From a virus (Duplodnaviria; Heunggongvirae; Uroviricota; Caudoviricetes), in IMG/VR virus record IMGVR_UViG_3300022218_000001, positions 7,179-71,178 of that record: a stretch of 64,000 nt of DNA. One strand, given 5' to 3'. The position numbers and the translations under genes are program-made. The notes beneath the pieces were generated by a model, which saw only the letters and a list, made by a program, of their open reading frames with translations, was not told where the DNA came from and did not search any database. Shown here in pieces: positions 12,512 to 62,649 of this stretch; within the stretch, counting starts at the first letter, position 1, and each line of letters opens with the position of its first letter.

Positions 12512-12539
12512 TTGATCGCCTTTTCTTCGCTGCTATAAT
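12512..12539 (+). promoter_or_regulatory. sigma70-like promoter (TTGATC-16-TATAAT)
   Basis: Near-consensus -35 and -10 hexamers upstream of 12674 gene. Confidence 0.55.
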
Positions 12540-12673
12540 ACGAGCGAACTTTGATAAGAACAGGTGTGATGCTTCACAGGACATGACGCTATAGAGGGAG
12601 GGACAATGCCTATGAACTAAAGCCTTGATTTTTGCCTTTTTGCCTTTTGCTTTTGACTGAAGGAGTCTGACAG

Positions 12674-13990
12674 ATGAAACGGATTTTTTTTCTTGCGGCA
12701 CTGATTGTGGCGATTTCTTGCGTGTTCGCGGCGGCGGACCCTACGGCGTGCAACTTCATACGCGGTGACGCGAACGGTGACGGAACTTTAGGCTTGCCAG
12801 ACGCATCCTATATAGGCAACTGGTATGGGAGCGGGGGGCCGGACCCGACGCCGACGATGGATGCGGGAGACGCGAACGACGATGGTGTCGTAAACATTTC
12901 TGACATCTCTTATATTACGAATTGGTGGCTTGGGGGGCCGAACCCGTCTTCGCCGTATTCTGGCGACTGCATAGAGGGATCAAGCAATACGATCGATTCG
13001 GATGAGTGTGGGACGAACTACCCGTTAGGGTCTTCGTACACATTAACGCAGGGAACTTGCTCATTCACCGAGGAGTCCACTACGGGCTCGGTGGACTTCA
13101 TCTCTACCCCGACAGGATCAGGGCATGCGACGTTGTCGCTCCTGAAGGAGGTGACTTGCAGTCAGTCGATAGGAGCGGACTGTCAAGGAGAGTACAGCTT
13201 CAAGATGCCGATAACCATGAACGCATTGAAGCTCGGGGAACTTGAGGGCCTTGACGATGCTGGCAACACCACCTGGGAACTCCAGACCCGATTTACCTCG
13301 TACATCGATCTCTATCTTGAGGACCGGTGCAAGCATTGCTGGTACAACTACCAGGGAGAGCCAAAAAACGACAATTGTCATAGCGTATGGGCTGAGTGCG
13401 AGGTTTGGCTTGAAGTTGACGTTAATGGAACAAAGTACTCGATCTTGGCAACTGAAAACGGGGAAGACAACCTTCACGAAGGCGGGTCTCCGTTCTCGGA
13501 TCTCCCCAACAGGCTTGTGGCTCCAGTTTGGCAACGAGACTATGAATGCGACTGTGACGCGGCAACAGGGTGGTATCATTTCATAGCAGATCCGAAGACC
13601 ATGAGCGGCTATCCGTACAATAATATGGACTATTCGGACTGGTTCGATTTCTGGGATTACCATTCCTCGCGAACGTTCCAGGATAAAGGAATGACGTGCT
13701 ACTACACCTGTTCACAAGATATAGACCCGCTTGAGTACAGCACACAAGATGAAACGACGCAGGAAATTACCTGGAGCCTCGCCGATATCGTAGCAGGAAT
13801 CACAGGCTCCCATTCGATGGACGACGAAGTCAAGTTCGACTTCATTGAGTTCCGAGAAATGTTTTGGGATATGGACCTCCATCAAGATAGCTTTTACGAC
13901 GACTTCCCGAACTACGAATACAACCTCATAGAGCATACGATTTGGTGCAACTATCTCTACCTCGACGCTACGCAGTGTCCTGGGTCGTAA
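12674..13990 (+). CDS. secreted protein with N-terminal dockerin-type repeats
   Basis: Signal peptide MKRIFFLAALIVAISCVFAAA; two repeats GDANGDGTLGLPDASYIGNWY / GDANDDGVVNISDISYITNWW match dockerin Ca-binding repeat pattern; Cys-rich remainder. Confidence 0.55.
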   Translation: MKRIFFLAALIVAISCVFAAADPTACNFIRGDANGDGTLGLPDASYIGNWYGSGGPDPTPTMDAGDANDDGVVNISDISYITNWWLGGPNPSSPYSGDCIEGSSNTIDSDECGTNYPLGSSYTLTQGTCSFTEESTTGSVDFISTPTGSGHATLSLLKEVTCSQSIGADCQGEYSFKMPITMNALKLGELEGLDDAGNTTWELQTRFTSYIDLYLEDRCKHCWYNYQGEPKNDNCHSVWAECEVWLEVDVNGTKYSILATENGEDNLHEGGSPFSDLPNRLVAPVWQRDYECDCDAATGWYHFIADPKTMSGYPYNNMDYSDWFDFWDYHSSRTFQDKGMTCYYTCSQDIDPLEYSTQDETTQEITWSLADIVAGITGSHSMDDEVKFDFIEFREMFWDMDLHQDSFYDDFPNYEYNLIEHTIWCNYLYLDATQCPGS

Positions 13991-14098
13991 AGTTCTTTGA
14001 TGGTTACTGGTTCATCTTTACGAGTTGGGGTGCTGCCTCCTGGTTGCACAGACGGCGCACCCCGCTCTTTTTTCTTTTCTCTTACAAGGAGGGGAGCT

Positions 14099-14452
14099 AT
14101 GAAGAAGCTCATTGCTATCACGGCACTTTTGCTGTGTTCTGCTTTTGTCTGTGGCCAATGGGAGCCCCCGACGTTTCTTCGTGGGGACGCTAACGCCGAT
14201 GGTGTTGTGGACATGAGCGATGCTGTGTTCACCAGCACGTATCTTCAGTATCACGCCCCTTGGATGCACTATTTCTCGTGCCCGGCCGCCGCTGACTTCA
14301 CCGGGGACGGGGTTATCGACGGGTGGGATATCTACTATCTCACACAATGGCTTTTCAACAGTGGCGCACCTCCGCCCGCACCAGGCCCTTTTAACTGCGG
14401 TGAAGGTCCGCTATATGGGCTACCGTGCTATATCGACATTTGCCCGGATTGA
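14099..14452 (+). CDS. small secreted dockerin-repeat protein
   Basis: RBS aaggagggg; signal peptide MKKLIAITALLLCSAF; repeats GDANADGVVDMSDAVFTSTYL and DFTGDGVIDGWDIYYLTQWL. Confidence 0.55.
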   Translation: MKKLIAITALLLCSAFVCGQWEPPTFLRGDANADGVVDMSDAVFTSTYLQYHAPWMHYFSCPAAADFTGDGVIDGWDIYYLTQWLFNSGAPPPAPGPFNCGEGPLYGLPCYIDICPD

Positions 14453-14538
14453 TCATCATTTAAAACCAGTTGAGGGCGCGCTGGCCAAGGCTCCCCACCT
14501 TCCTGGTGCGCCCTCCTTTTATCAGAGATGGAGGCTCC

Positions 14539-14745
14539 ATGATCAACGGTAGGGATATGGAGGCGATCGTCTATGATGCGCACTCAGAGCAGGCAAGGAA
14601 GCTCGCCGGCTGGTGGGAGCGACACCAGGAGTGGGATAAACGCCGTGTGCGAGAGGAGGAGGAAACGAGGAAAAGGGTCATGGCGAAGGAGCGGGCTCTG
14701 AGAAAGCTCTCACCCGAAGAGATCGAGGCGCTCGGGCTGGAATAG
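14539..14745 (+). CDS. hypothetical small protein
   Basis: RBS gagatggagg before ATG; charged coiled-coil. Confidence 0.3.
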   Translation: MINGRDMEAIVYDAHSEQARKLAGWWERHQEWDKRRVREEEETRKRVMAKERALRKLSPEEIEALGLE

Positions 14746-14778
14746 AAATGAAGCGAAGGAAGAAATAAGAATGTGCCG

Positions 14779-14907
14779 ATGGCCGGCGGATTGCCGGAGG
14801 TCCGGTGTGCTGGCGTCGGCGTTTACTATCCAGAAGGACCGGAATGCGTCTGGGTAAGCGGCGACTTTCTTATTGAAACGGAGACTTTCGTGGAGCACCC
14901 GAAATAG
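14779..14907 (+). CDS. 42-aa Cys-containing micro-protein (paralog A)
   Basis: MAGGLPEVRCAGVGVYYPEGPECVWVSGDFLIETETFVEHPK; second copy at 15341 conserved at protein level with synonymous DNA changes. Confidence 0.45.
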   Translation: MAGGLPEVRCAGVGVYYPEGPECVWVSGDFLIETETFVEHPK

Positions 14908-15337
14908 CATGATGACAGCAGAACTATCGGTCAGGAAGGCCGTGATCGAGATCCGAGTGGTTCGCATCGGCAGGAAGCAGATGACGAAATCCATTTTCAG
15001 GCAGATCCCGGTTCGGCGGGCGTTTATCTTCAATAAAGCCGCGCGCACGCTCAAGATCCGGGAAAACATAGAGGTCTGGGGCTATGCTCGTGGGGTGTCA
15101 GAATTCGATCCAGATAGCTTCGGGGCACACGTTGTTGGCCTTTGGAGTATGGACGGGGAAATGTTCCGATGCATCGTCCCCACATTGCACGAGTCGGGGT
15201 GTCGTCGCGGCGAAGTTTGGATCCCTGCCTGGACAGACGTAAAGTATGACCTCGACGACGATGCGCTCTTGGTTGAGTTCAAGGAATATTTTTTGAGCCA
15301 ATTCGAGGCGGCTGGGCAGTTGTTTGTAGGAGCATGA
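14908..15337 (+). CDS. hypothetical protein
   Basis: ATGATG start immediately after micro-protein stop. Confidence 0.4.
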
Positions 15338-15340
15338 AGA

Positions 15341-15460
15341 ATGACTGAGTTCCCGGATATCGGCTGCGCGGGCGACGTTTACTATCCAGAAGGACCGGAA
15401 TGCGTCTGGGTAAGTGACGACTTTTTAATTGAGACGGAAACGTTTGTCGAGGTGCCTGAA
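15341..15460 (+). CDS. 39-aa Cys-containing micro-protein (paralog B)
   Basis: RBS aggag 8 nt before ATG; MTEFPDIGCAGDVYYPEGPECVWVSDDFLIETETFVEVPE; stop overlaps next ATG (TGAATG). Confidence 0.55.
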
Positions 15461-15945
15461 TGAATGAGGAATGGCTAAATGCTGCGAAGGAACTGACTGC
15501 AAGGCTTGGGGAGAAGATCGGCGAGGGCTCTGACTACTTCTGGCCGATTCTCGTTCGGCATCAGGTTATCAGCGCCAGTGTGGCAATTCTTGCGGGTGTC
15601 TGTGCTGTTGTGGCTGCTGTCTTTTTTATCATGTGGGCCAGGTGGTCCAGGAGGGTTCACAGGCACAAAGATGTGGTGGCGCTCCTCCAGATCGAAGAGC
15701 ACGATAGGAGCAGGCCCGCTGATGGGGAAGGGTCGGCTGAGGATAGGAAGGTTTGGTTTGGAGCGCACGAAACGCTTCTCGAGACAAGCAGGGCGGAGTC
15801 GGCCGCTATAAGTGTCACGTATGTCGTGCAGGCAATAGCGTGCGTGATAATTGGGATCGGGGTTCTTGCTGCTTGTTGCAGTATCTCGCAGATTTTAAAC
15901 CCAGAGTACTTCGCGCTCCATGAAGTGATAGGGATGCTGGAGTAA
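15460..15945 (+). CDS. membrane protein (2 TM segments)
   Basis: Hydrophobic segments ISASVAILAGVCAVVAAVFFIMWARW and VQAIACVIIGIGVLAACC. Confidence 0.45.
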   Translation: MNEEWLNAAKELTARLGEKIGEGSDYFWPILVRHQVISASVAILAGVCAVVAAVFFIMWARWSRRVHRHKDVVALLQIEEHDRSRPADGEGSAEDRKVWFGAHETLLETSRAESAAISVTYVVQAIACVIIGIGVLAACCSISQILNPEYFALHEVIGMLE

Positions 15946-16157
15946 TGGACACGGCCACTTGGAACCACACGTACGGATATGACAACACCTACGACATCCC
16001 AGTTTGCTGTGATTTTTGTGACATGGTTGTTCTAATGTCAGTTCGAGGAGCCATACCAAGCAGGTGGGAGTACGATAGTGGCAAGAAGAAGTGCCACCTG
16101 TGCGTTGAGAAACAGCGCACTGGTTCGGTAGAAGTTGAGGCCCAAGGTGATGTTTGA
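15945..16157 (+). CDS. small zinc-ribbon protein
   Basis: CCDFCD...CHLC cysteine pairs. Confidence 0.35.
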   Translation: MDTATWNHTYGYDNTYDIPVCCDFCDMVVLMSVRGAIPSRWEYDSGKKKCHLCVEKQRTGSVEVEAQGDV

Positions 16158-16800
16158 TGGAAAAGCTGCTGAAATGACCGAGCCGAACGACGTTATCACG
16201 GTTGGGGCGAGTTATTTTTCCACCACCGCACGGGGATCAGCTCGAGCTATGATCCGGTATCTCTCTATCGGGACGAACCCGTTCTACGGGGGGCCGCTCC
16301 CGGAGGGCAGCGTCCAACTGACGCTGGACGATGCCGAGGTCGTCTTAGAGAAGCTCGGCGAGATTGTGCGGAAAATGAAAGCTAAGACCAAGGAGGACCC
16401 CAGCAGTGATCAAAGTGAGGCGAGTCGTAGAGAGCGGGAAGAAACGGAACCGGCCACCCAGATTCTGGCTCGTGGTCGGGGACAAACACCACCAAATATC
16501 GCTGCAGGAAGCGAAGAGTCTCCGGCAGCAGTTGAACCGGTTCAAACTATAGGGGGTATGCCCATGGCGGCCTGGAAGCGTGAGGTATGCGAAAGCTGCG
16601 AGTTTTTTATAAGGCTTGGGGAGATGGATGTGGACAGGGACGTCAATGACGAATGGGTTGGCAGTTGTAGGCAGGCACCGCCCACGCTACGGCATGAACG
16701 GGATTACGACTACCCTCGGATAGCCGAGGGCTTCCCTGCCTGCTCGCAGTTTACTGCGAGAAAATCAGAGATTCCACTCCCGGGCGGTCTTGTTGAATGA
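16135..16800 (+). CDS. hypothetical protein
   Basis: 221-aa ORF, acidic; CESCEFF motif. Confidence 0.4.
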   Translation: MRPKVMFDGKAAEMTEPNDVITVGASYFSTTARGSARAMIRYLSIGTNPFYGGPLPEGSVQLTLDDAEVVLEKLGEIVRKMKAKTKEDPSSDQSEASRREREETEPATQILARGRGQTPPNIAAGSEESPAAVEPVQTIGGMPMAAWKREVCESCEFFIRLGEMDVDRDVNDEWVGSCRQAPPTLRHERDYDYPRIAEGFPACSQFTARKSEIPLPGGLVE

Positions 16801-16803
16801 CAT

Positions 16804-17289
16804 GTGCCATTTGCGCTTGGTTTTCACATTGCCTCTTCTACTTCGACCGGGGCGTCTCGCGCGGCGTCCCGGTCACTTACAGCCATGAGAGAGTCAATCT
16901 TTGGGCACTTCAACATTGAGGCGTGCGCTATCACCAAGCAGCAATGGAGGCGCCGACATCGCCTCTGCTCTGTTTGTGACTATGGGGGTTTTGCGAAGAT
17001 TTGTCATAACTGTAAAGAGGTCTTTTTTTATGAAGGCCCAAAGGTCGAGGAGGAGTCAGGTATGATGACAAGAGAAGAACTGAATCGAGAATTCATTGAT
17101 ACCCACTGCGCTATATCTCTTGGGCTTGTCAGCGATGGGAAGCTTCAGCGTGCTGTGGAGTTATTTCTACAGCAAATGAGAAACCGCCATGACACCATAG
17201 GCCTTGTTGAGGGCGACGTGAGAGCCGATGGGCTCGCAGCCGTCTCACAGGGAGCGGATGCTGTCCGCTCTTGGCTACGAAGATTCTAA
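16804..17289 (+). CDS. hypothetical protein
   Basis: ORF with CxxC pairs (CSVCDYGGFAKICHNC). Confidence 0.35.
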   Translation: MPFALGFHIASSTSTGASRAASRSLTAMRESIFGHFNIEACAITKQQWRRRHRLCSVCDYGGFAKICHNCKEVFFYEGPKVEEESGMMTREELNREFIDTHCAISLGLVSDGKLQRAVELFLQQMRNRHDTIGLVEGDVRADGLAAVSQGADAVRSWLRRF

Positions 17290-17316
17290 AAACGAGTGAT
17301 CTGCTCGCTTTTTTTC

Positions 17317-17344
17317 TTGAGCCCCCATGGCTCGTTCGTATAAT
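17317..17344 (+). promoter_or_regulatory. sigma70-like promoter (TTGAGC-16-TATAAT)
   Basis: Hexamers directly upstream of ATG 17356; implies near-leaderless transcript. Confidence 0.5.
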
Positions 17345-17355
17345 GTGAACAAACA

Positions 17356-17616
17356 ATGAACAGACGCTCATTCTTAAAGTCCTGCCTGATCGGGGCGGTA
17401 ACGGCAATGCTCCCGGGCTCTAATCGGGCATTCTTGCCGCAACCAAAACCGATGCCACTGTGCACGCCTCCGCCTGAGATCTTCGCAAAGCATTGCCTCC
17501 AGTCTTTGAGATCGAACCTGGTTATGGCCAAGCTGGTTCATAAAGACCTTAAAGAAGAGCCTTCTCGCATTTGCAGGAATGTCGAAACTGGGGCCTGGGA
17601 GACGGACAATGCCTGA
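17356..17616 (+). CDS. small protein with twin-arginine (Tat) signal and capsid-N-terminus-like segment
   Basis: MNRRSFLKSCLIGAVTAML = S/T-RR-x-F-L-K Tat motif; PPEIFAKHCLQSLRSNLVMAKLVHKDLKEE aligns with PPEIWAVESLMVLRDNLVMAGLVHRDFENE at N-terminus of 50957 gene. Confidence 0.4.
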   Translation: MNRRSFLKSCLIGAVTAMLPGSNRAFLPQPKPMPLCTPPPEIFAKHCLQSLRSNLVMAKLVHKDLKEEPSRICRNVETGAWETDNA

Positions 17617-19915: not shown

Positions 19916-20232
19916 TGACGACAACCCTGCCGCTCTACACAGGAGCCCGCCCGTGCCTTCGTTGCGGTTATTGCTGTAAACAGACCCCATGTTGGCTTGG
20001 GCGATGGACTCTGGATGAGACTCAGTGCTGGTACCTGGTAAAAGAACGCTCGGGTGAGTATTCCTGTTCAATTGCCGATGAGATTACAAAGAAGCGCGGA
20101 TGGGAGATAGCCCCTGCCTTCGGTGCTGGGTGTTGCTCACCCCTGAACCAGGACCGTAAAAAAATAGAGGAAAACGCGGATTTAGGGGTTGAACCTCCGC
20201 TGGTTCGCCCGTATAATACGGGCAAAGGTTGA
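19915..20232 (+). CDS. Cys-rich small protein
   Basis: CLRCGYCCKQTPC ... CC motifs. Confidence 0.35.
   Translation: MTTTLPLYTGARPCLRCGYCCKQTPCWLGRWTLDETQCWYLVKERSGEYSCSIADEITKKRGWEIAPAFGAGCCSPLNQDRKKIEENADLGVEPPLVRPYNTGKG
20189..20217 (+). promoter_or_regulatory. sigma70-like promoter (TTGAAC-17-TATAAT)
   Basis: Consensus hexamers inside the recurring TTCGCCCGTATAATACG motif; upstream of ATG 20283. Confidence 0.55.
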
Positions 20233-37473: not shown

Positions 37474-37569
37474 CCTTCTCCGTAGCCAGAAAAGAGACCC
37501 CCCTCTTTTATTTTTTTGATGGGGGGTGGGTCCTTTTCCAGGATCTCCGATTCTCAGTTTGAGGCAAGT

Positions 37570-38170
37570 CCGATTTGCTATGGACTTTTTCCGCGAGCGC
37601 GAGAGCCGATTTGCTATAGGCTTTTTCCGCGAGCGCGGAACTCCTCCAGTTGTGGGCTCGTCTTGCTGGCGAGCATGGCGTCCAGGGAGCTGAATGTTCT
37701 GGAGGCGTGCCAGGTTGCCCGATCGAATCTGCTCTCCACGGTTACGCAGAGCCCCCAGTCTGTGATTGCAACGACAATCCCCGCCGGCCCCCCGTTGCGA
37801 TGGAAGAGCTGCATTCCAATCTCAATCTCGATGCCGTCTGCTGTGCGTGGCGTGATTACGAGCATCTTCCCTTCGCTGTCAGTTTTCATCGATTCCTCTA
37901 TTCCCCGATTTGCTATAGACTTTTTCCGCGAGCGCGAAAGCCGATTTGCTATGGACTTTTCTCATGAGCGCGAGTTTGGGACCTGGGTGTCGTAGCCGAT
38001 GGCGGAAATGCCCGAGAGCCGATTTGCTATAGACTTTTTCCGCGAGCGCGAAAGCCGATTTGCTGTGGAATTTTGGCCAACGTAAAGTCAATTCCTTCAG
38101 AGGAAAACCGAAACCTATTTCGAGGCAAACCCGATTTGCTATAGGCATTTTCCGTAAGCGCGTGTTAGGG
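37570..38170. repeat. array of seven copies of a 36-bp direct repeat CCGATTTGCTATAGACTTTTTCCGCGAGCGCGAAAG
   Basis: Copies near 37570, 37606 (tandem), 37905, 37941 (tandem), 38019, 38055, 38130; partial dyad TTTCCGCG-A-GCGCGAAA inside unit. Confidence 0.85.
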
Positions 38171-38340: not shown

Positions 38341-38593
38341 TCGCAAACACGGGAGTTTACAGACTTCGGGCGATGAGGCTCCGAAGGACTCCCGAGAGGC
38401 GATGCCACAATATGATTTCATCTGAGCTTTCTGTCTTGGTTGCTTTTCCTCCTGCGGTTTTTGGTTTCGCAGATCTCAGATGCGCGATGTCGCGCGCCGA
38501 TTATGGTTCGCTGAGACTCGCCCGTATTATACGAGCGAGGAGATAAAATTTCGACAAAAAAACTTTTTTCTTGTTTTTTTCCTCATTATCCCT

Positions 38594-38610
38594 TGTTTCG
38601 CCCGTATAAT
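38594..38610 (+). promoter_or_regulatory. promoter-like conserved motif TTTCGCCCGTATAATATG with AT-rich upstream element
   Basis: Same motif as at 20201-20220; -35 weak but preceded by A/T tracts. Confidence 0.4.
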
Positions 38611-38670
38611 ATGGACGAACTAAGTAAATCGGGACAGATCCATTCTACTCAAAACCGCAGGAGGCGAACG

Positions 38671-42103: not shown

Positions 42104-42316
42104 ATGCTAAAACTCCGATTTTCAACACAAGATGCCAGCTTTGAGAATTTCGAGACATCTGGCTCCGCCGATGTGCTACGGGAGATAGCCGAAAGGCTGG
42201 ATACGTTGACAGTCAACATGGCGGAAGAAGGAGGCGCGATTCACGACGAAAACGGGAACACCATCGGCCGATGGGAATTTGCTCGAGAGCAGAAAGCCGG
42301 AAGGGGAAAACGATGA
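42104..42316 (+). CDS. hypothetical small protein carrying repeat unit
   Basis: RBS gggagaga; contains ANMAEEGGAIHDENGNTIGRWEFAR segment duplicated in next gene. Confidence 0.35.
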   Translation: MLKLRFSTQDASFENFETSGSADVLREIAERLDTLTVNMAEEGGAIHDENGNTIGRWEFAREQKAGRGKR

Positions 42317-42636
42317 ATGACTCGCCTGAAGTTTACATCCACCTGTACTACAAGCCGGATCCCTCGTTGACAGCCAACATGGCGGAAGAAGGAGGCGCGA
42401 TTCACGACGAAAACGGGAACACCATCGGCCGATGGGAATTTGCTCGAGATTACATCCACCTGTACTACAAGCCGGATCCCTACACGAGCCAGGAGGATCA
42501 AATCTGCGCGGTCTGTGGGCTCCCGTTGGATGGTCTTGTCGTTTGCTGTTCCGATGCCACGTACGACGACGGTACGCATGACGGCGCCGTCTGTACCGAT
42601 TGCTGCTATCACAACAAAGAAAGGGCGATGCGATGA
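42313..42636 (+). CDS. hypothetical Cys-containing protein with internal tandem duplication
   Basis: YIHLYYKPDP + ANMAEEGG... unit repeated; C-terminal CAVCGLP...CTDCC. Confidence 0.4.
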   Translation: MNDSPEVYIHLYYKPDPSLTANMAEEGGAIHDENGNTIGRWEFARDYIHLYYKPDPYTSQEDQICAVCGLPLDGLVVCCSDATYDDGTHDGAVCTDCCYHNKERAMR

Positions 42637-46866: not shown

Positions 46867-48255
46867 ATGGCTACACGCGGAACGAGGCACATTGGGCTCA
46901 AGTTCGAGCCCTTCGATAAGCAGATACCGCCTCTGATTTCAAGATCACCGGTAACAATGGCAGTCGCCGGTGCGCGTGGCGGCAAAACACAGGTCGGCGC
47001 GCCCCGCATGCTCCTGGATGCCATCAGCCAGGAAGACATGCACCCTGACGACATTCAGAAAGGAGACCCCTACCTCTGTGCGGTGGGCGCCCCGTCATTC
47101 CCGATGCTTCAGAGGATCATCCTTCCGGCCTTCCTTGCAATGGTTCCCGAAGGGTTGATGATTGGCCCCTACCACCAGACAAGGAAGCGGCTGCGCATCC
47201 GGGGGGTCAAGGGGGAGTCGCATATCTATTTTCTTTCGGGCAAGGCCTTCGAGAGCTGGATGGGCATGAAGCTCTATCGGGTCTGGCTCGATGAGTTCGC
47301 CCAGTGCAAGGAGGCCCTCTACGACGAGATCCGGGTCCGCCTATCGGACCGAAAGGGTCAGCTCTTCTTGACTGGAACGCCGCAAGGGCCGAACTGGGCC
47401 TATCACAGACTCTACAAGCCGTGGGATGAACGTCGGAAGTTGTCACCAGAGGCACGCCTCCAGGACCCAGACCACCCTGGCGCGGAGATCGACTTCTACA
47501 CCTGGAGGACGGTCGACAACCCCCACATCGATAAGCAGTTCATCGAGACGAAGAGAAGGACCATGACGAAAAGGTTCTTCGAGCGGACATTCGAGGCCTC
47601 GTGGGCAACCTTCGAGGGGCAGGTCTACGAAGAGTTCATGGAAGCGGTTCACGTCCAGAAGGTGACAGACTTCACCTTCAAGCTTCCAAACGGCCGGAAG
47701 GTCGGCCGGGGGCCAAATCTGGTGCCCCTCGTGAGTGTCTACGCCGGTGTTGACTGGGGTTTTGCTCAAGGTCACGCAGGGGTCCTCTTGGTTGGAGGGA
47801 AGGACACGGCGGGCCGTTGGTGGCTTTTGGAGGAGTCCGTCGACGAGCGTGTTTTGGTTCATGCAGAGCCAGGCGTTGACTCCTGGGTCACTCGAGCGCA
47901 GACATTGCGGGCCAAGTGGGGTGTAGAGACTTTTTTCTGTGATACAGAGGCGCCGGACAAGATTATTACTTTCAAGCGTGCAGGTCTCCCGGCTGTTGGG
48001 GCGCAGAAAGATGTGAAGGATGGTATTCAGGCCGTTGCGAGGTATCTCAAGGTCGACGAAGAGACCGGGGAGCCAATGATGTACGTTCTAGATCAGTGCC
48101 CAGTCACGATCGATGAGCACACGTACTATCACTGGGAAGAGAACAAAGAGCGGCCTGAGAAAATTGCAGATCATACATGCGATGCGAATCGGTACATGGT
48201 GTACACTGCCGAAGCTCGCGGACGCTTCCGGAGGGAACCGGCATATGCTGGATGA
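46867..48255 (+). CDS. terL: terminase large subunit
   Basis: Walker A-like VAGARGGKTQVG, LFLTGTPQGPNW, C-terminal nuclease acidic residues (GVDWGF, FFCDTEAPD). Confidence 0.85.
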   Translation: MATRGTRHIGLKFEPFDKQIPPLISRSPVTMAVAGARGGKTQVGAPRMLLDAISQEDMHPDDIQKGDPYLCAVGAPSFPMLQRIILPAFLAMVPEGLMIGPYHQTRKRLRIRGVKGESHIYFLSGKAFESWMGMKLYRVWLDEFAQCKEALYDEIRVRLSDRKGQLFLTGTPQGPNWAYHRLYKPWDERRKLSPEARLQDPDHPGAEIDFYTWRTVDNPHIDKQFIETKRRTMTKRFFERTFEASWATFEGQVYEEFMEAVHVQKVTDFTFKLPNGRKVGRGPNLVPLVSVYAGVDWGFAQGHAGVLLVGGKDTAGRWWLLEESVDERVLVHAEPGVDSWVTRAQTLRAKWGVETFFCDTEAPDKIITFKRAGLPAVGAQKDVKDGIQAVARYLKVDEETGEPMMYVLDQCPVTIDEHTYYHWEENKERPEKIADHTCDANRYMVYTAEARGRFRREPAYAG

Positions 48256-48275
48256 CGTCCGGGGAAGGATTAGAC

Positions 48276-49949
48276 ATGGCTCAATCGACCCTTTTTGAAA
48301 AGCTCGATAAGAAGCATCCGGACTATGCCTTGTGGGAAGGAGAGTGGAAGCGGTATCGGGATGTCGTGGGTGACGCCCTTGCCCAGAAGACAGACTACCT
48401 TCCCCGAAATAAGTTTGAGCCGGCGCCCCAGTACGAGTTCCGCGTGGACCTTTCGCAGTTCGTCCCTGAGTCCGGCCTCGCTATCGAAAGACTGATTGGG
48501 GCTCTTTACAAGGAGAAGCCGAAGCGGGACTTTAAGGGCAATGAGTCTGACTTGGCCAGCTTCATAGACAAAGCGAATCGCAAAGGGCAGACTTGGAACC
48601 AGGTCGTCGAAGACATAGCCCATAGGCTTATGTCTTACGGGACGACGCGGGTTTTGATCAATGTGCCGCCTGTCGTGTTCGATGAGCCACCATCGGAGGA
48701 TGGCATTCCCTTGACGGAAGACGGTGGCTTGACCCGGGCAGAAGAACAAGAGGCCGGAATTCGCCCCTTTGTAATTAATTATTCTCCATTTGCCGTGGTG
48801 GATTGGAATCACGACCTGGAGACAGGCGAGCTTATTTATTGTCGCATCAAAGAAGAGCGGACAGTCCGCAACGAGGGTGACAGCGTAAAGAAGTCTCATT
48901 TGAAAGCGGTCCGGTTTCTTGAGTACACTCGATTTACGGTGATATGGACAGATTTCCGTGAGACAGACGAAAGGAATGAGATGGAGCAGGTGGGCACCAT
49001 GGAGGTGCGCACTCACAACCTCGGCATTGTGCCGCTGGTCGTGGAGGATCTCCGCGAGATCAAGCCTCTCATCGGCCATTCCTTCATTCGCTACAGCTCT
49101 CGGGCGGATGTCCGGAAGTTCCAAGCAGAGTCGGATCTCGCATACGACACTTACATGCACGCGCACCCCTTTCTTGCGATTTGGAGCGAGGATGAGCTGA
49201 AGGAGATCGGCGTTGGAGCCTCTACCTACTTGAAGCTCAACCCGGGCTCGGGCTCTACTGGGCGTGAGGACGCGCAATATATTGAGAGTCCGAACAATGC
49301 CTTTGAGGCGCTCCAGCAGGTCATTGAAGAGAATCGGACATTGATCTATCGCCAGGCGCAGGTGGACCCCCTCGGGCAAATCTCCAGCGGGAAGAGCACG
49401 CAGAACTTCCAGGCCTCTGGTGTCTCTCGAGCCTGGTCCTTTGGGACGTCTGAGGCTCGGGTTCTTACGAAGATCGCCGATCGGATGGAGAGCTTAGAGG
49501 CTCGAGTGTTTGAAATTGTCCTTCGATTTATGGACAGCAGTGCCGATACAGCCCCGGCAGAGGATCTGTTCAAGGGAGATGTCCAGTATCCGGAAGAGTA
49601 CGATCTTTCGTCCACCCATCAGCTTATCGAGGAAAGAGCGCAGATTGGAGAGCTTGTCAATTCTCCGACGCTACTTCGCATCATCGACAAGCGCATCGCC
49701 GCATCCAAGGTCGGTGATGCCAGTGCGAAGGACTTGAAAGCTATCAACAAGGAGATCGACGATAACCCCCTTATGGGTACAATGGCTGGGAAACAGAACG
49801 TTGATCCGTTCTCCATGCCGGCGCCGAAGACTGGCAGAGAGGACGAATCTCTCATGTCAGGCGGATCGGAAGTAAGCGGGCGCAAGCAAATTCAAGGAAG
49901 CACACCAGGCGCGCAAGGCCGGCGGCGGACGCCGGCAAATCCAAGTTAA
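48276..49949 (+). CDS. putative portal protein
   Basis: ~558-aa ORF immediately after TerL; synteny only. Confidence 0.55.
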   Translation: MAQSTLFEKLDKKHPDYALWEGEWKRYRDVVGDALAQKTDYLPRNKFEPAPQYEFRVDLSQFVPESGLAIERLIGALYKEKPKRDFKGNESDLASFIDKANRKGQTWNQVVEDIAHRLMSYGTTRVLINVPPVVFDEPPSEDGIPLTEDGGLTRAEEQEAGIRPFVINYSPFAVVDWNHDLETGELIYCRIKEERTVRNEGDSVKKSHLKAVRFLEYTRFTVIWTDFRETDERNEMEQVGTMEVRTHNLGIVPLVVEDLREIKPLIGHSFIRYSSRADVRKFQAESDLAYDTYMHAHPFLAIWSEDELKEIGVGASTYLKLNPGSGSTGREDAQYIESPNNAFEALQQVIEENRTLIYRQAQVDPLGQISSGKSTQNFQASGVSRAWSFGTSEARVLTKIADRMESLEARVFEIVLRFMDSSADTAPAEDLFKGDVQYPEEYDLSSTHQLIEERAQIGELVNSPTLLRIIDKRIAASKVGDASAKDLKAINKEIDDNPLMGTMAGKQNVDPFSMPAPKTGREDESLMSGGSEVSGRKQIQGSTPGAQGRRRTPANPS

Positions 49950-50956: not shown

Positions 50957-51901
50957 ATGGCCCTCGTAAGTTCTATCTATCCGCCCGAAATTTGGGCGGT
51001 CGAGTCCTTGATGGTCCTTCGTGACAATCTTGTCATGGCGGGCCTCGTTCACCGCGACTTCGAGAACGAAGTAGCACAAGTCGGAAACACCGTAAGGACC
51101 AGAAAGCCGCAGAAGCTTACGGTCCAAGATTTCGCACAGCAGTCGGGTACAAACGCAAGTCTCACTGGGTTGACGGTTGAGAACCTGAACGCCCGTGAGA
51201 TCACCGTGGTCCTCGACAAGCACAAGTACACCAGTTTCATCGTCGAAGATCGCGACGAGGCGACCAGCATCAAGGATCTGCGAGAAGAGTTCATCATCCC
51301 GGCGATCGACCCGATCGCACAGCAGGTCGACGATGATATTATGGACGAGTACCAGAACGGCACGGACGTGGCAGGAGACCCTGTCACTCTGGTGGCCGCA
51401 GGTACGCTCGGCGCCGGTAACTCGATGGATGAGAACGATATCATCGAAGCCGACCGAGCCCTCAACGACAGTCAGTGTCCGCGCGCTCAGCGTTCGTTGG
51501 TCTTGGGGACTCAGCACAACGCCGACGTCATCGGTCGCCCGCTGTTCCACCAGGCAAACACCTCCGGGACGACTGCCGCATTGCGCGAAGCGAACCTCGG
51601 CAAGGCGTTCGGGTTCGAGTCGTACATGAGCCAGAATGTCCCGGTCGGGAACAACACGGACAATGCGGGTAACAACCAGTCCTACGCCTTCCATCGGAAT
51701 GTGCTGGCTCTGGTTACTCGCCCGCTTCCGCAGATTCCCGCGAATCTCGGTGCGACATCGTCTGTCGAGACAATCGACAATATCGGCGTGCGTGTCACGA
51801 ACAGTTACGAGCACCAGGCTAAGGGTGTCGTGATCTCGTTCGATGTGCTGTACGGTTTGCAGCTTTTAGATCAGAATCTTGGGGTGATTATCGCCCCTTA
51901 A
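50957..51901 (+). CDS. putative major capsid protein
   Basis: 314-aa ORF after scaffold, followed by strong terminator; RBS agtggagaggc. Confidence 0.55.
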   Translation: MALVSSIYPPEIWAVESLMVLRDNLVMAGLVHRDFENEVAQVGNTVRTRKPQKLTVQDFAQQSGTNASLTGLTVENLNAREITVVLDKHKYTSFIVEDRDEATSIKDLREEFIIPAIDPIAQQVDDDIMDEYQNGTDVAGDPVTLVAAGTLGAGNSMDENDIIEADRALNDSQCPRAQRSLVLGTQHNADVIGRPLFHQANTSGTTAALREANLGKAFGFESYMSQNVPVGNNTDNAGNNQSYAFHRNVLALVTRPLPQIPANLGATSSVETIDNIGVRVTNSYEHQAKGVVISFDVLYGLQLLDQNLGVIIAP

Positions 51902-51997: not shown

Positions 51998-52108
51998 GCA
52001 TCGCTGTCTGCCGCTCTCGGCCCCAGTCCACTGGTGTAAACGGCCGTGGTGTTGGAACCCACGGTGGACCGGGAGCGGCGATTCTTATCCTATATTTTGG
52101 TGGGAAGA

Positions 52109-52744
52109 ATGTTGAAACAGATCTCACGGGACTGGATTGATCCAGGCACCTGCGGTTCTGGGGGGAAGCTTCAGCCTGTTTGGCTTTCGAAGCTATTCGA
52201 GGCATCCGAGATCGTTGAGGGCGAAACTGTCCTCGACTATGGGTGTGGAAACGGGCGGCTTGCGAACTTCATCAGCTCAAAGATTGAGCAGTTTCAGTAT
52301 TTTGGCTTGGAGCTGTGGAGCAGCCACGGGAGGGATTGCATTTCAGATGCGAGAGTGTGGCTCGGTGAGGACCCTCGCGTTCAGTTTGGATTCATTGATG
52401 CTGAGCTTGAGGACGAGGCTATCTCTAAGGCTGACGTTGTTGTCCTTGGGAGCATACTCCCTCATCTGTCGGCCGATGATTCCATCACGCTCTTACAGAA
52501 ATTCATCCCGCTACTTGACCGTGGTGGGCGCATTTGCTTTAGCTGTAAGATAGAGGAACGACAGAAGAATTCTGGGTACAGCAAGGCTTACGGGGTCAAC
52601 GGCTGCTTCAACTGGATCATTCATTCCAAGCTGTTCCTTGGCCGGATCAGAAGGGAAGTGGCTCCTTTGCGGAAATGCCCGGTTCATTTTAAGCATCAGA
52701 GATATTCGCATGATTTCTTCATGGTTGAGAGGCCGAGACAATGA
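52109..52744 (+). CDS. class I SAM-dependent methyltransferase
   Basis: VLDYGCGNGRLANF motif I; acidic motif II region. Confidence 0.55.
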   Translation: MLKQISRDWIDPGTCGSGGKLQPVWLSKLFEASEIVEGETVLDYGCGNGRLANFISSKIEQFQYFGLELWSSHGRDCISDARVWLGEDPRVQFGFIDAELEDEAISKADVVVLGSILPHLSADDSITLLQKFIPLLDRGGRICFSCKIEERQKNSGYSKAYGVNGCFNWIIHSKLFLGRIRREVAPLRKCPVHFKHQRYSHDFFMVERPRQ

Positions 52745-52995
52745 AAGAAGACGCGGTCCCTCACGCCCTTGACTGCTGTGCTGGACGGTATCATTTTGCG
52801 GAGGCCAAGTTGACTGAGAAGGAGAGGATCCGGGGGATCACGGCGATTGCCCGCGTGAAGCCTCTTGACCGCGCAGAGCGGCGCGCTGAGCGGCTCGCAC
52901 GGAAGAAAAGAGAACGTCGCATTTATCGTGAACTTCTGGCAAGGTATGCAGCAGTAGCCGAAGATCAGGATATTTTCAATCCCGGGAGGGAATAA
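52741..52995 (+). CDS. hypothetical small basic protein
   Basis: ATGA overlap. Confidence 0.3.
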   Translation: MKEDAVPHALDCCAGRYHFAEAKLTEKERIRGITAIARVKPLDRAERRAERLARKKRERRIYRELLARYAAVAEDQDIFNPGRE

Positions 52996-53005
52996 GGAGT
53001 CGACG

Positions 53006-53830
53006 ATGCAGGCTGTTATCCTTGCTGCTGGATGGGGGACTCGAATAGGTGAGCTTGGAGAGGTGACGCCCAAGCCCCTTTTGCCTCTTGGTCGGGGGTG
53101 CGTCATTGACAGTGTGCTCACTTCGTTGTGGGTTGAGCCAGTCACTCAAATTAGGGTAGTCCACAATAACCATCGAAGCCGGGTGGCTGGGAGCTGGCCA
53201 AAGAGGTTCAAGACCTGGGCTCAGTCTGTCCGCTGGACTCCCGAGCCGGGGCACAATCCGGAGCACCCCCGTATCCGCCTCATCAATGACCAAGTCCAAG
53301 ACCCGGAGCAGAAGATTGGATCGGTCGGCGACATGGCTTTCGCTGTCCGCAAGAACTCAAGGCGAGATCTGCCTATCGTTTTTGCCTGCGGCGATGATAT
53401 TTACTCGAATTCTCACCTCGAGGAGCTGGCCGGTGAGGGTAGTGCGATCGTCGTACGGAACGTTAACGACATGGACCCCCTTGTGGAGAGCGCCAAGCCG
53501 TCCAGGGTGGACGTCAAGGCAGGAATGGTCGATGAGGTTGGCCTTGGCGCAGAGAATACTCCGTGGCGCTTCTGTGGCCCCCTGTGGCTCGCTGGGGAGG
53601 ACATGGGCTTCCTCTTGGAATATGCCGACATCTGGCAGAAGGCCGGAGTTGTACCGGACTCGATTGGCGAATTCATCGAAGCCCTGGTCTCATCTGGTCG
53701 TCCGGTTCGAGCAGTCAAAGCCTCTACGTTTTTTTGGACTGTTGGGAACAAGGATCTCTACAAGATGATAAAAAAGAGGCATGCGCCAATACGTCGAGAG
53801 GTTAGGCGCCTTCGGAGGGTAAACACATGA
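53006..53830 (+). CDS. sugar-1-phosphate nucleotidyltransferase (NTP_transferase family)
   Basis: MQAVILAAGWGTRIGELGEVTPKPLLPL canonical G-x-G-T-R ... K-P-L-L motif; RBS aaggag. Confidence 0.75.
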   Translation: MQAVILAAGWGTRIGELGEVTPKPLLPLGRGCVIDSVLTSLWVEPVTQIRVVHNNHRSRVAGSWPKRFKTWAQSVRWTPEPGHNPEHPRIRLINDQVQDPEQKIGSVGDMAFAVRKNSRRDLPIVFACGDDIYSNSHLEELAGEGSAIVVRNVNDMDPLVESAKPSRVDVKAGMVDEVGLGAENTPWRFCGPLWLAGEDMGFLLEYADIWQKAGVVPDSIGEFIEALVSSGRPVRAVKASTFFWTVGNKDLYKMIKKRHAPIRREVRRLRRVNT

Positions 53831-54516
53831 GTGCTGTGGTTGAACGAAGGGAGCAATTCTGTGAACAAACAACGGAGCTTACACATGGCTCTATTACGCA
53901 GGAAGATTGGGCAGCTCTCCGCCGGACCCTCTTTGATGTCCATGAAGCCTTTTGTTCGCTACCCCGGCCCGGCCTCATTGTGGAAGTCGGAACCCTTGGT
54001 GGACGAACAACGAGAGGGATCTTCGAAGTCCTCAATCGGCTTCGGTGGGATGTCCCTGATGTCGTGACGATCGATACCGATAAAAGGTGCTTGGGTGACG
54101 CAGTCTTCAATCAGTGCCATGGGTTTAAGAATTCCCTCCGCACTTTCCATGGCCGGTCGACAGACTGGAAGCCAGTAGAGCCAATTTGGTGGGCATTTGT
54201 TGATGGCTGTCACTGCCATGAGTGTGTCCTTGCGGACCTGATGCATCTTTCTCGGCACGTCCCTGTTGATGGAGTTATTTGCCTGCACGACGCAGGAGAT
54301 CAAAGAAGCCTGGAGATGCTTGTTCATGAGCGGTATCACGGCTGTGATGGAGTGAGCCGGCTCTATGGGGTCACAAGTGCGATCGATGAATGGCTTGGGT
54401 GCTTTGACGATTTCACATGGGAGCAATTAGAGTGCGTTAAGGCGCAGGAGCGCCCTCGTGGCTCTCCAACGCCACTCTTCGGTGGAGTCCAAGCCTTTAG
54501 GAGGAAAAGGCCGTGA
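53827..54516 (+). CDS. TylF/CmcI-like class I SAM methyltransferase (paralog 1)
   Basis: IVEVGTLGGRTT and FVDGCHCHECVLADL...ICLHD motif (DG-x-H ... hydrophobic-HD). Confidence 0.5.
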   Translation: MSAVVERREQFCEQTTELTHGSITQEDWAALRRTLFDVHEAFCSLPRPGLIVEVGTLGGRTTRGIFEVLNRLRWDVPDVVTIDTDKRCLGDAVFNQCHGFKNSLRTFHGRSTDWKPVEPIWWAFVDGCHCHECVLADLMHLSRHVPVDGVICLHDAGDQRSLEMLVHERYHGCDGVSRLYGVTSAIDEWLGCFDDFTWEQLECVKAQERPRGSPTPLFGGVQAFRRKRP

Positions 54517-56784: not shown

Positions 56785-56786
56785 AA

Positions 56787-57143: not shown

Positions 57144-57172
57144 GGGCCGGTGGTTGATCAGAGGAGGTCAAA

Positions 57173-58099: not shown

Positions 58100-58124
58100 G
58101 TACCTATCGGCTGGAGGCTAAGCT

Positions 58125-58739: not shown

Positions 58740-58741
58740 TC

Positions 58742-60287: not shown

Positions 60288-60317
60288 ACATTAAAGTAAG
60301 GAGTGCGATAGCCGAGG

Positions 60318-62645: not shown

Positions 62646-62649
62646 GCCG

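What the first reader, a model, noticed from the sequence alone, without database searches (positions are those of the whole stretch)
14771..15460. Duplicated micro-protein module: two ~40-aa CxxxxYYPEGPEC peptides, each directly preceding a larger gene
A roughly 100-bp segment occurs twice, at 14795-14908 and 15357-15462. Both copies translate to conserved peptides (…CAG.VYYPEGPECVWVS.DFLIETETFVE.P.). The DNA differences between them are largely synonymous (ctt att gaa acg gag act ttc versus tta att gag acg gaa acg ttt), which indicates purifying selection on the protein. Copy B has a textbook RBS (aggag-8-ATG), and its stop overlaps the next start (TGAATG) of a two-TM membrane protein. Copy A is immediately followed by ATGATG of another gene. 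Both peptides fall below the 60-aa cut-off of the ORF track.
Basis: seen in the sequence. Interest (0 to 1): 0.6.

Follow-up and report, generated by a model that had tools for sequence, protein, structure and literature searches.

The report
Two paralogous phage mini-protein genes
An uncultured 108-kb tailed phage carries two copies of a roughly 40-codon gene for a very acidic mini-protein; comparing the copies shows the protein is under strong selection, but it has no relative anywhere else, so its function can only be guessed.

Summary
The repeat is real. 14817-14895 and 15373-15451 are 87% identical, and homology runs from about codon 5 to the stop codon of two small ORFs. Peptide A is 14773 or 14779 to 14907 (44 or 42 aa). 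Peptide B is 15341-15463 (40 aa).

Both are almost certainly translated genes:
- omega is about 0.10 (Fisher p = 4e-5).
- 11 of 17 differences fall at third codon positions.
- All indels inside the frame are multiples of 3.
- Codon-usage scores match real genes.

Outside a central block, synonymous sites are saturated, so the duplication is old. The central 39 nt are identical. Gene conversion is the most likely cause.

No homologue of the peptide exists in 1.84 billion representative proteins or in the viral, metagenome and genome DNA scans. The two downstream genes also have no close relative.

The "module" reading is not supported. The two downstream genes are unrelated, and 56% of gene junctions in this phage abut in the same way.

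- ATG 14771 is out of frame with peptide A.
- The next gene after B starts at ATG 15460 (ATGA overlap), not at the "TGAATG" ATG.

My best guess at function is a free-standing acidic binding or inhibitor protein. This is inferred and low-confidence. Interest is modest.

The parts
12518..12548 (+). Promoter-like motif (TTGATC-16-TATAAT, with a palindrome around the -10). Probable start of the transcription unit that holds both peptide genes.
   Evidence: 10/12 match, TG extension. family D5: the same motif recurs at 17323, 20196 and 38589.
14539..14745 (+). g68, the 68-aa gene upstream of peptide A (phrog_11759, unknown function).
14756..14762 (+). Shine-Dalgarno-like AAGGAAG serving the start region of copy A.
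   Evidence: Spacers are 8 nt to the out-of-frame ATG 14771, 10 nt to the in-frame GTG 14773 and 16 nt to ATG 14779.
14771..14857 (+). Probably a competing or non-functional start created by an 8-nt insertion relative to copy B.
   Evidence: Its codon score is non-coding-like (off-frames -0.29 and -0.36).
14773..14907 (+). Peptide A gene: 44 aa from GTG 14773, or 42 aa from ATG 14779. Sequence M(PM)AGGLPEVRCAGVGVYYPEGPECVWVSGDFLIETETFVEHPK, pI 4.3. No pipeline called it.
   Evidence: ATG 14779 lies in the stem of a hairpin spanning 14775-14820.
14820..14858 (+). 39-nt core of copy A, identical to 15376-15414. It encodes VYYPEGPECVWV(S).
   Evidence: All 12 codons are identical, including rare GTA and GGA. 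P = 2.7e-5 if codons were drawn independently; permutation p = 0.004.
14909..15337 (+). g142, a 142-aa orphan gene after peptide A. The N-terminal 55 aa have pI 11.9. There is no well-placed SD, so it is probably translationally coupled to peptide A.
   Evidence: The AF2 model is unusable (pLDDT 34.8).
15327..15332 (+). Shine-Dalgarno TAGGAG of peptide B, 8 nt before ATG 15341.
   Evidence: The position matches the phage's usual AGGA at -13/-12.
15341..15463 (+). Peptide B gene: 40 aa, MTEFPDIGCAGDVYYPEGPECVWVSDDFLIETETFVEVPE, with 11 acidic and 0 basic residues, pI 4.05. Called as a gene in the public record (P0001).
15376..15414 (+). 39-nt core of copy B, identical to 14820-14858.
15460..15945 (+). 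tm161, a 161-aa two-TM membrane protein. Its ATG overlaps B's stop (ATGA), and its own GAGG sits at -11 inside B. It has a remote match to phrog_1486, 'membrane protein'.
17293..17307 (+). Terminator-like hairpin plus T-run, just before the next promoter-like motif (17317-17344). Probable end of the transcription unit.

Best explanation
These are two genuine paralogous small-protein genes of an uncultured tailed phage with a circular or terminally redundant contig of about 108.6 kb.

**Shown**
- The duplicated unit is the small ORF itself.
- Its amino-acid sequence has been held nearly constant while synonymous sites outside a central block have randomised. The duplication (or acquisition of a second copy) is therefore old, and selection acts on the peptide.
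- Both genes sit in one compact, same-strand run of genes. This run lies between a sigma-70-like promoter motif at about 12520 and a terminator-like hairpin at about 17300.
- The run follows the replication genes and also holds two signal-peptide, dockerin-like proteins.

**Inferred**
1. The central 39 identical nucleotides were homogenised by short-patch gene conversion between the copies (about 0.6).
2. Each small gene is translated in series with the next gene. B to tm161 uses an ATGA overlap. A to g142 has a 1-nt gap, and g142 has no usable SD of its own. This is the phage's ordinary gene packing, not a sign of a dedicated partnership (about 0.65).
3. The product is a soluble, cytoplasmic, beta-rich, two-cysteine, very acidic mini-protein of about 4.5 kDa. 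It acts on its own by binding another macromolecule, in the manner of small acidic phage early proteins that block or decoy a host or phage protein. The two paralogues differ mainly in charged surface positions and in the N-terminal 8-10 residues, which may tune target specificity (about 0.3; no direct evidence).
4. Copy A is probably translated from GTG 14773. It is probably made less efficiently than B, because an 8-nt insertion displaced the ancestral ATG from its SD and created an out-of-frame ATG at the optimal spacing.
For: **Coding and selection**
- omega is about 0.10, Fisher p = 4e-5, and 11 of 17 differences are at third positions.
- In the flanks, only 6 of 16 conserved-residue codons are the same codon, against 6.3 expected for independent draws. 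That is saturation.
- Indels inside the frame are 3 nt each. The only indel not divisible by three (8 nt) lies upstream of ATG 14779.
- DNA similarity stops at the stop codons.
- Codon scores are 0.31 and 0.43 bits/codon in frame, and all other frames score lower (the two off-frames on the same strand are negative; the in-phase antisense frame scores about 0.2).
- B has a canonical SD and was called as a gene.

**Phage context**
- TerL, portal, major capsid protein, helicases, Prim-Pol and methyltransferases are present.
- Promoter-like and terminator-like motifs bracket the gene run.

**Only the small gene was duplicated**
- The downstream genes are unrelated, as are the upstream ones.
- Abutting junctions are the norm: 35 of 63.

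**Product properties**
- pI is 4.05-4.3; B has 11 D/E and 0 K/R.
- There is no hydrophobic segment: the highest 19-aa hydropathy is 0.58.
- The weak AF2 model has three short strands.

**Core**
- 12 of 12 codons are identical, including rare ones.
Against: - No homologue exists, so selection is inferred from a single pairwise comparison of 32 codons.
- The function has no direct support. There is no family, fold or defence-system match, and the peptide model has pLDDT 57.7.
- Copy A has an ambiguous start. The best-placed start codon is out of frame, ATG 14779 is buried in a hairpin, and no pipeline called A.
- The identical core could reflect a nucleotide-level function rather than gene conversion.
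- Both copies do abut the next gene, and g142 lacks its own SD. g142 also has a strongly basic N-terminal half that an acidic peptide could bind. A partner role is therefore not excluded.
Confidence: 0.55

Rival explanations
1. **Partner module.** The peptide is a portable adaptor, neutraliser or chaperone made together with whichever protein follows it. One conserved small acidic domain is paired with unrelated cargo genes, as promiscuous antitoxin or immunity domains are (analogy from my own knowledge).
For: - Both copies abut the next gene: ATGA overlap for B, a 1-nt gap for A.
- g142 has no well-placed SD, so its translation probably depends on peptide A.
- The peptides are very acidic. 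g142 residues 1-55 have pI 11.9, and tm161 has a basic juxtamembrane stretch.
Against: - There are only two instances.
- 56% of junctions in this phage abut in the same way, so both abutting by chance has a probability of about 0.31.
- The downstream genes match no toxin or effector family.
- No other locus shows the pairing.
Confidence: 0.18
2. **Cis-acting leader peptides.** The nascent chain, while still in the ribosome tunnel, stalls or modulates termination at the small ORF's stop codon. This would set how much of the next gene is translated (SecM/MifM/TnaC-like logic, from my own knowledge).
For: - The short ORFs end at or next to the next start codon.
- The conserved part is the C-terminal 32-33 residues, about one tunnel length, while the N-terminus varies.
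- A proline is conserved at position -2 from the stop in both copies.
Against: - No known arrest motif is present.
- No significant mRNA structure sequesters the downstream starts (z = +0.15 and +1.2).
- Conservation is uniform over the whole 32 residues, not focused near the C-terminus.
- tm161 has its own SD.
Confidence: 0.07
3. **Nucleotide-level element as the selected feature.** The repeat would be an RNA hairpin, a protein-binding site or a recombination site. The ORFs would be incidental, or the core would carry a second function on top of coding.
For: - The 39-nt core is identical despite saturated flanks and uses rare codons: GTA 9%, GGA 18%.
- The core can form a hairpin in both copies, CGUUUAC / CCAGA-14 nt-UCUGG / GUAAG(C/U)G, with one G-C to G-U change.
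- z = -2.8 for the 51-nt version in copy A.
Against: - Outside the core, amino acids are conserved through synonymous changes, which only coding explains.
- The hairpin is not significant in copy B or for the core alone (z = -1.0 to -1.35).
- There is no compensatory change and no Rfam match.
- The core occurs nowhere else in the window or the DNA collections.
- As the sole explanation I put this at about 0.03. As an extra layer on a coding gene I put it at about 0.15.
Confidence: 0.1
4. **Copy A is a decaying or silent copy.** Only peptide B would be functional, with A drifting after its start region was disrupted.
For: - There is an 8-nt insertion between the SD-proximal AAGA and ATG 14779, relative to copy B.
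- The optimally spaced ATG 14771 is out of frame.
- ATG 14779 is paired in a hairpin region (14750-14830) that folds at -29.9 kcal/mol.
- No pipeline called A in any form.
Against: - The 44-codon frame is intact, with an in-frame GTG 10 nt from the SD.
- Its codon score is gene-like.
- Long-term conservation of the residues is required by the saturated synonymous sites.
- The start disruption could be recent, however.
Confidence: 0.2
5. **Exported or modified peptide.** The candidates are a RiPP or bacteriocin precursor, or an arbitrium-like signalling peptide.
For: - Two short paralogous peptides each carry two conserved cysteines.
- They share an operon with secreted dockerin-like proteins and a membrane protein.
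Against: - There is no signal or leader sequence and no hydrophobic N-terminus.
- The N-terminus is the variable part.
- No maturation enzyme, transporter or receptor family is nearby.
Confidence: 0.03

Closest known systems
Small acidic phage early proteins that bind and block a host protein, e.g. phi29 p56, PBS2 Ugi, T7 Gp2 and Ocr, and many anti-CRISPRs (from my own knowledge)
   Same: Phage-encoded, very small, strongly acidic (B is 27% D/E with no basic residue), soluble, located in a non-structural operon, and without homologues outside a narrow lineage.
   Different: No sequence, profile or fold similarity to any of them was found. At 40-44 aa the peptides are shorter than most. The target is unknown. 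Two paralogues sit 556 bp apart.
Promiscuous antitoxin or immunity domains paired with unrelated toxins, e.g. the PanA 'Panacea' domain, and type II TA operons with an upstream acidic antitoxin overlapping the toxin (from my own knowledge)
   Same: One conserved small acidic gene lies immediately upstream of, and is translationally linked to, two unrelated downstream genes. One of those is a membrane protein.
   Different: There is no DNA-binding or known antitoxin domain, and the downstream genes match no toxin family. There are only two instances. Adjacency is the norm in this genome.
Regulatory leader or arrest peptides: SecM, MifM, TnaC (from my own knowledge)
   Same: A short ORF ends at the start of the next gene. 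The conserved part is the C-terminal stretch of about 30 residues, with a proline near the stop.
   Different: There is no known arrest motif, no N-terminal export or TM segment, and no start-sequestering mRNA structure. Conservation is uniform along the peptide.
PilZ-domain strand motif, as in type IV fimbriae assembly PilZ (3dsg, 3cnr)
   Same: Local match of RCAGVGVYYPEGPEC to RAAGIGVQFPDGPEG.
   Different: E = 0.68, which is not significant. It covers only 15 residues and fits copy A better than copy B. There is no Pfam PilZ hit. I treat it as chance.

Membership tests
Any curated protein family (Pfam-A, PHROGs, NCBIfam, PADLOC) | Significant profile-HMM match of the peptide. | tested here: not met
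   Both peptides matched 0 families at E <= 0.1-1.
Any protein family in public sequence space | A homologue outside this contig. | tested here: not met
   The word-based search of 5.8e9 clusters found only the peptide itself. The exhaustive HMMER profile search of 1.84e9 representatives found the peptide itself plus two spurious repetitive proteins. DNA and peptide-pattern scans of viral, metagenome and genome contigs were negative or chance. GenBank phages gave nothing.
Type II toxin-antitoxin-like pair | A small upstream gene overlapping or abutting the downstream gene. | tested here: met
   ATGA overlap for B and tm161; a 1-nt gap for A and g142. This is also true of 56% of junctions in this phage.
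Type II toxin-antitoxin-like pair | A recognisable toxin domain downstream and a DNA-binding antitoxin domain upstream. | tested here: not met
   No Pfam, NCBIfam or PADLOC hit for g142, tm161 or the peptides.
Type II toxin-antitoxin-like pair | Toxicity of the downstream protein, neutralised by the upstream one. | not testable with these tools
   Needs expression experiments.
Ribosome-arrest or leader peptides (SecM/MifM/TnaC type) | A short ORF directly upstream of the regulated gene on the same mRNA. | tested here: met
Ribosome-arrest or leader peptides (SecM/MifM/TnaC type) | The downstream start or SD is sequestered in an mRNA structure that a stalled ribosome would open. | tested here: not met
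   Folds around ATG 14909 and ATG 15460 are no more stable than shuffles (z = +0.15 and +1.2).
Ribosome-arrest or leader peptides (SecM/MifM/TnaC type) | Sequence-dependent stalling of the ribosome. | not testable with these tools
   Needs toeprinting or cell-free translation.
RiPP precursor peptides | An adjacent maturation enzyme or transporter, and a conserved leader with a variable or defined core. | tested here: not met
   No such Pfam families occur in the operon. The N-terminus is the variable part, and the C-terminal 32 residues are conserved.
Arbitrium-type (AimP) phage signalling peptide | An N-terminal secretion signal and a neighbouring receptor gene. | tested here: not met
   There is no hydrophobic N-terminus; the highest 19-aa hydropathy is 0.57-0.58. 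No TPR or receptor family lies nearby.
Zinc ribbon / rubredoxin-like mini-domain | Four metal-binding Cys/His residues in two knuckles. | tested here: not met
   The sequence has only two conserved Cys, spaced 12-13 residues apart.
Structured RNA family (Rfam) | A covariance-model match. | tested here: not met
   No match at E <= 1 in 13500-17500.
Acidic DNA-mimic or inhibitor proteins of phages | Small size and a high density of acidic residues. | tested here: met
   B has 11 D/E in 40 aa and pI 4.05. A has 7 D/E and pI 4.3.
Acidic DNA-mimic or inhibitor proteins of phages | A fold that presents charges like DNA, or demonstrated binding to a target. | not testable with these tools
   The AF2 model is low-confidence (pLDDT 57.7). 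Fold searches gave nothing with E <= 0.001.

The most novel reading that the evidence does not exclude
The conserved mini-gene could be a portable 'front end' that controls whichever gene follows it. It would work either as a promiscuous acidic neutraliser or adaptor for unrelated downstream effectors (a basic-N-terminus protein and a two-TM membrane protein), or as a nascent-chain regulator of downstream translation. The nucleotide-identical 39-nt core would double as the recombination handle that lets the cassette be placed in front of new genes.
Probability: 0.12. Interest if true: 0.65.

Novelty: new member of a known kind. Interest (0 to 1): 0.3.

Why it matters
The locus shows that a 40-codon phage gene with no homologue among about 15 billion predicted proteins can still be validated as protein-coding from the genome alone, by comparing it with its own paralogue. 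The annotation pipelines missed one of the two copies.

If the product proves to be a new acidic inhibitor or adaptor, it would add a family to the small-protein repertoire that phages use against their hosts.

The practical value is limited for three reasons. The phage is uncultured, its host is unknown, and there are no relatives for comparative work.

Tried and rejected
**Homologue searches**
- Peptide by word-based search and by exhaustive HMMER profile. The only non-self hits, P0002 and P0003, are long repetitive proteins that score by summing many weak repeats. Rejected.
- DNA-pattern and back-translated scans of viral contigs, metagenome contigs and genome contigs. The one 'hit', L013, is the scan pattern FCVWVSGDFL inside a 520-aa archaeal ORF. 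Rejected as chance.
- GenBank phages by blastn and tblastn with the region, the peptide, g142 and tm161: nothing.
- g142 and tm161 are singletons, with no relatives in viral contigs.

**Synteny**
- I used the UvrD-type helicase, 5 kb upstream, to find related phages. Nine loci at 22-43% identity came back.
- None carries the peptide.
- None of the 20 window proteins tested, which span 10.8-21.6 kb, is present there.

**Further copies**
- No further copy was found in about 80 of the 108.6 kb of the genome.

**Structure**
- Peptide model: pLDDT 57.7.
- g142 model: pLDDT 34.8.
- Foldseek against PDB and BFVD gave nothing meaningful.

**Sequence matches to solved structures**
- The PDB sequence profile returned only sub-threshold 15-17-residue matches to PilZ and RsbU. 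Rejected.

**RNA element**
- No Rfam match.
- The core hairpin is not significant.

**Alternative reading frames and recoding**
- The reverse-strand 119-aa ORF (14710-15069) and the other frames are not conserved in copy B, where stops appear. Rejected.
- Frameshift fusion to the downstream genes is rejected: tm161's frame has a stop immediately before its ATG.
- An alternative genetic code is rejected: code 11 gives uninterrupted long genes and canonical ATGA overlaps.

**Literature**
- The motif appears in no paper.
Full report
**1. What is in the sequence**

The window carries a direct repeat at 14817-14895 and 15373-15451. It is 79 nt long, 87% identical, with copies 556 nt apart. The 35-nt and 24-nt core strings occur exactly twice in 64 kb and never in 100 shuffles.

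Each copy lies inside a short + strand ORF:
- Peptide A runs from 14773 (GTG) or 14779 (ATG) to 14907. Its sequence is M(PM)AGGLPEVRCAGVGVYYPEGPECVWVSGDFLIETETFVEHPK.
- Peptide B runs from 15341 to 15463. Its sequence is MTEFPDIGCAGDVYYPEGPECVWVSDDFLIETETFVEVPE.

A DNA alignment shows similarity starting at about 14791/15350 (L/F-P-E/D-V/I) and ending at the stop codons. The repeat is therefore coextensive with the ORF. Profile searches of six-frame translations found no third copy in the window or in the extra 16 kb of the same contig that I could fetch.

**2. Are the ORFs real genes?**

- Over 32 aligned codons there are 10.5 synonymous differences on 20.2 synonymous sites and 6.5 non-synonymous differences on 75.8 sites. 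This gives omega of about 0.10 with Fisher p = 4e-5. Eleven of the 17 differing bases are at third positions.
- The two indels inside the frame are 3 nt each.
- The other five frames are not conserved, and copy B acquires stops in them.
- I built a codon model from this phage's confident genes. The peptide frames score 0.31 (A) and 0.43 (B) bits/codon. Real 40-codon windows score 0.34 +/- 0.15, and off-frames score -0.49 +/- 0.27.
- B has TAGGAG 8 nt before its ATG, which is the usual position of the SD in this phage (AGGA at -13/-12). The public record called it as a gene.

I conclude that both are, or until recently were, translated genes under strong purifying selection on the peptide.

**3.

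Outside a central block, synonymous sites are saturated. Only 6 of 16 conserved-residue codons use the same codon, against 6.3 expected if codons were drawn independently from the phage's usage.

The central 39 nt (14820-14858 = 15376-15414, encoding VYYPEGPECVWV) are identical, including the rare codons GTA (9%) and GGA (18%). The probability is 2.7e-5 under independent draws, and the permutation test for the run gives p = 0.004.

The default explanation is short-patch gene conversion between old paralogues. The alternative is a nucleotide-level function. The core can form a hairpin in both copies, with one G-C to G-U change. That hairpin is not significantly stable in copy B or for the core alone (z = -1.0 to -1.35). 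It reaches z = -2.8 only for a hand-picked 51-nt stretch of copy A. There is no compensatory change and no Rfam match. Two copies cannot separate the two explanations.

**4.

- The finding's start, ATG 14771, is in another frame. It opens a 28-aa ORF ending at TAA 14855-14857.
- Relative to copy B, copy A has an 8-nt insertion between the shared AAGA and ATG 14779. This leaves the SD (AAGGAAG, 14756-14762) 8 nt from the out-of-frame ATG 14771, 10 nt from the in-frame GTG 14773 (the two overlap as ATGTG) and 16 nt from ATG 14779.
- ATG 14779 is paired in the stem of a hairpin spanning 14775-14820. The 81-nt region folds at -29.9 kcal/mol with z = -2.0.
- No form of peptide A, nor the 28-aa product, is present in the 15-billion-protein collection.
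- Copy A is therefore most likely read from GTG 14773, probably less efficiently than B. It could be a recently silenced copy.
- After B, the membrane-protein gene starts at ATG 15460 and overlaps B's TGA as ATGA. It does not start at the ATG of 'TGAATG'.

**5. Context**

The window is a tailed-phage genome:
- Large terminase at 46867-48255, portal at 48177-49949 and major head protein at 50957-51901.
- Two helicases, a Prim-Pol primase and several methyltransferases.
- TerL is only about 25% identical to any GenBank phage.
- The source is ENA assembly ERZ27296478, contig k141_3134530 (108,612 bp). The loci fetched for window genes map in a way that only fits a circular or terminally redundant contig.

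A promoter-like motif with a palindrome around TATAAT recurs at 12518, 17323, 20196 and 38589. A terminator-like hairpin with a T-run sits at 17293-17307. The peptide genes therefore probably lie in one transcription unit, whose genes in order are:
1. Two signal-peptide, dockerin-like proteins.
2. g68.
3. Peptide A.
4. g142.
5. Peptide B.
6. tm161.
7. A Cys-rich 70-aa protein.
8. g216.

**6. Is there a peptide-plus-partner module?**

- g142 and tm161 share no similarity. g68 and g142, the upstream neighbours, do not either. Only the small gene was duplicated.
- g142 has no well-placed SD (GGAG at -17) and starts 1 nt after A's stop. It is probably translationally coupled to A. tm161 has its own GAGG at -11 plus the ATGA overlap.
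- Such packing is the rule here. 35 of 63 called gene junctions overlap or lie no more than 3 nt apart, so both copies would abut their neighbour by chance about 31% of the time.
- In favour of a partnership, charges are complementary. The peptides have pI 4.05-4.3, g142 residues 1-55 have pI 11.9, and tm161 has a basic juxtamembrane stretch.
- This is suggestive only. A complex prediction could not be run.

**7. Relatives elsewhere**

There are none for the peptide.
- The word-based search of 5.8e9 clusters found only the peptide itself.
- An exhaustive HMMER profile search of 1.84e9 representatives found the peptide itself plus two repetitive proteins that score by summing weak repeats.
- Scans of viral, metagenome and genome contigs with back-translated motifs found nothing. 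The single exception was a chance pattern match inside a long archaeal ORF.
- GenBank phages gave nothing.
- g142 is a singleton with only a weak PHROG hit. tm161 is also a singleton in the protein search, with a remote match to phrog_1486 (1e-11, 'membrane protein') as its only link elsewhere.
- Phages sharing the nearby helicase at 22-43% identity carry none of the 20 window proteins tested from 10.8-21.6 kb.

**8. What the product may do**

The peptides have the following properties:
- Size of about 4.5 kDa.
- Very acidic: B has 11 D/E and no K/R.
- No hydrophobic or signal segment.
- Two conserved Cys 12-13 residues apart, plus conserved aromatic residues and prolines.
- A weak AF2 model (pLDDT 57.7) with three short strands.

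No family, solved structure, defence-system model or fold match was found. The 15-residue resemblance to a PilZ strand has E = 0.68 and is treated as chance.

By analogy with other small acidic phage proteins (my own knowledge), the most likely mechanism is a free-standing binder, inhibitor or decoy of a host or phage macromolecule. I put this at about 0.3. The rivals and my estimates are:

| Rival | Estimate |
|---|---|
| Dedicated partner or neutraliser of the downstream proteins | 0.18 |
| Cis-acting leader peptide | 0.07 |
| Nucleotide-level element as an added layer | about 0.1 |
| Copy A being silent | 0.2 |
| Exported or RiPP-like peptide | 0.03 |

**9. Verdict**

- The coding and purifying-selection reading is well supported.
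- The 'module' reading is not.
- This is a new, lineage-restricted small-protein family of an ordinary kind: phage ORFan mini-proteins with an intragenomic paralogue.
- Interest is modest. The useful points are methodological (validating a 40-codon ORFan from its own paralogue, with one copy missed by pipelines) and the unexplained identical core.

Noticed in passing
window 37540-38162: An iteron-like array of at least 8 copies of a 32-nt unit, CCGATTTGCTATRGACTTTTTCCGCGAGCGCG, some as 36-nt tandem pairs. It lies in an apparently gene-poor stretch close to where the ends of the public contig join (about window 37083). It is a candidate replication origin, partition site or regulator-binding array.
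   Followed up: no
window 12518-12548, 17323-17353, 20196-20226, 38589-38619: A recurrent promoter-like motif, TTCGCCCGTATAATACGGGCAAA, with a palindrome flanking a perfect -10. Two copies coincide with sigma-70-type scan hits. The motif probably marks the phage's early or middle transcription units.
   Followed up: partly
window 42204-42481: An 85-nt direct repeat (42204-42288 / 42365-42449, 99% identical) and a 35-nt repeat (42330 / 42447, 97% identical). Together they look like a very recent tandem duplication of about 117-161 nt.
   Followed up: no
window 52000-64000 and on to L002:21023: An unusually large cluster sits directly after the major head gene. It holds at least 7 Methyltransf_24 genes, a glycosyltransferase, a sulfotransferase, NeuB, CTP-transferase (CMP-sugar synthetase-like), a GHMP kinase and nucleotidyl-transferases. 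It looks like a phage-borne pathway for making and decorating a nonulosonic-acid-type sugar.
   Followed up: no
window 12674-13990 and 14099-14452: Two phage-encoded proteins with N-terminal signal peptides and dockerin type I / EF-hand-like repeats. They are the first genes of the operon that holds the mini-protein genes.
   Followed up: no
window 15335-15343 and 14743-14781: g142 and peptide B are in the same reading frame, separated only by TGA AGA, so TGA read-through would fuse them. g68 and peptide A are also in the same frame, but two stops lie between them (TAG 14743, TGA 14749). The chance expectation for both pairs being in frame is 1/9.
   Followed up: partly
window 14775-14820: A stable hairpin in the first codons of peptide A (GCCGAUGGCCGGCG...GCCGGAGGUCCGGU...GCUGGCGUCGGC). 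The 81-nt context folds at -29.9 kcal/mol with z = -2.0. The hairpin buries ATG 14779. Copy B has no counterpart.
   Followed up: partly
window 15945-16157: A 70-aa protein with a CCxxC...CxxC pattern, likely a zinc ribbon. Its ATG overlaps the tm161 stop codon by one base (15945).
   Followed up: no
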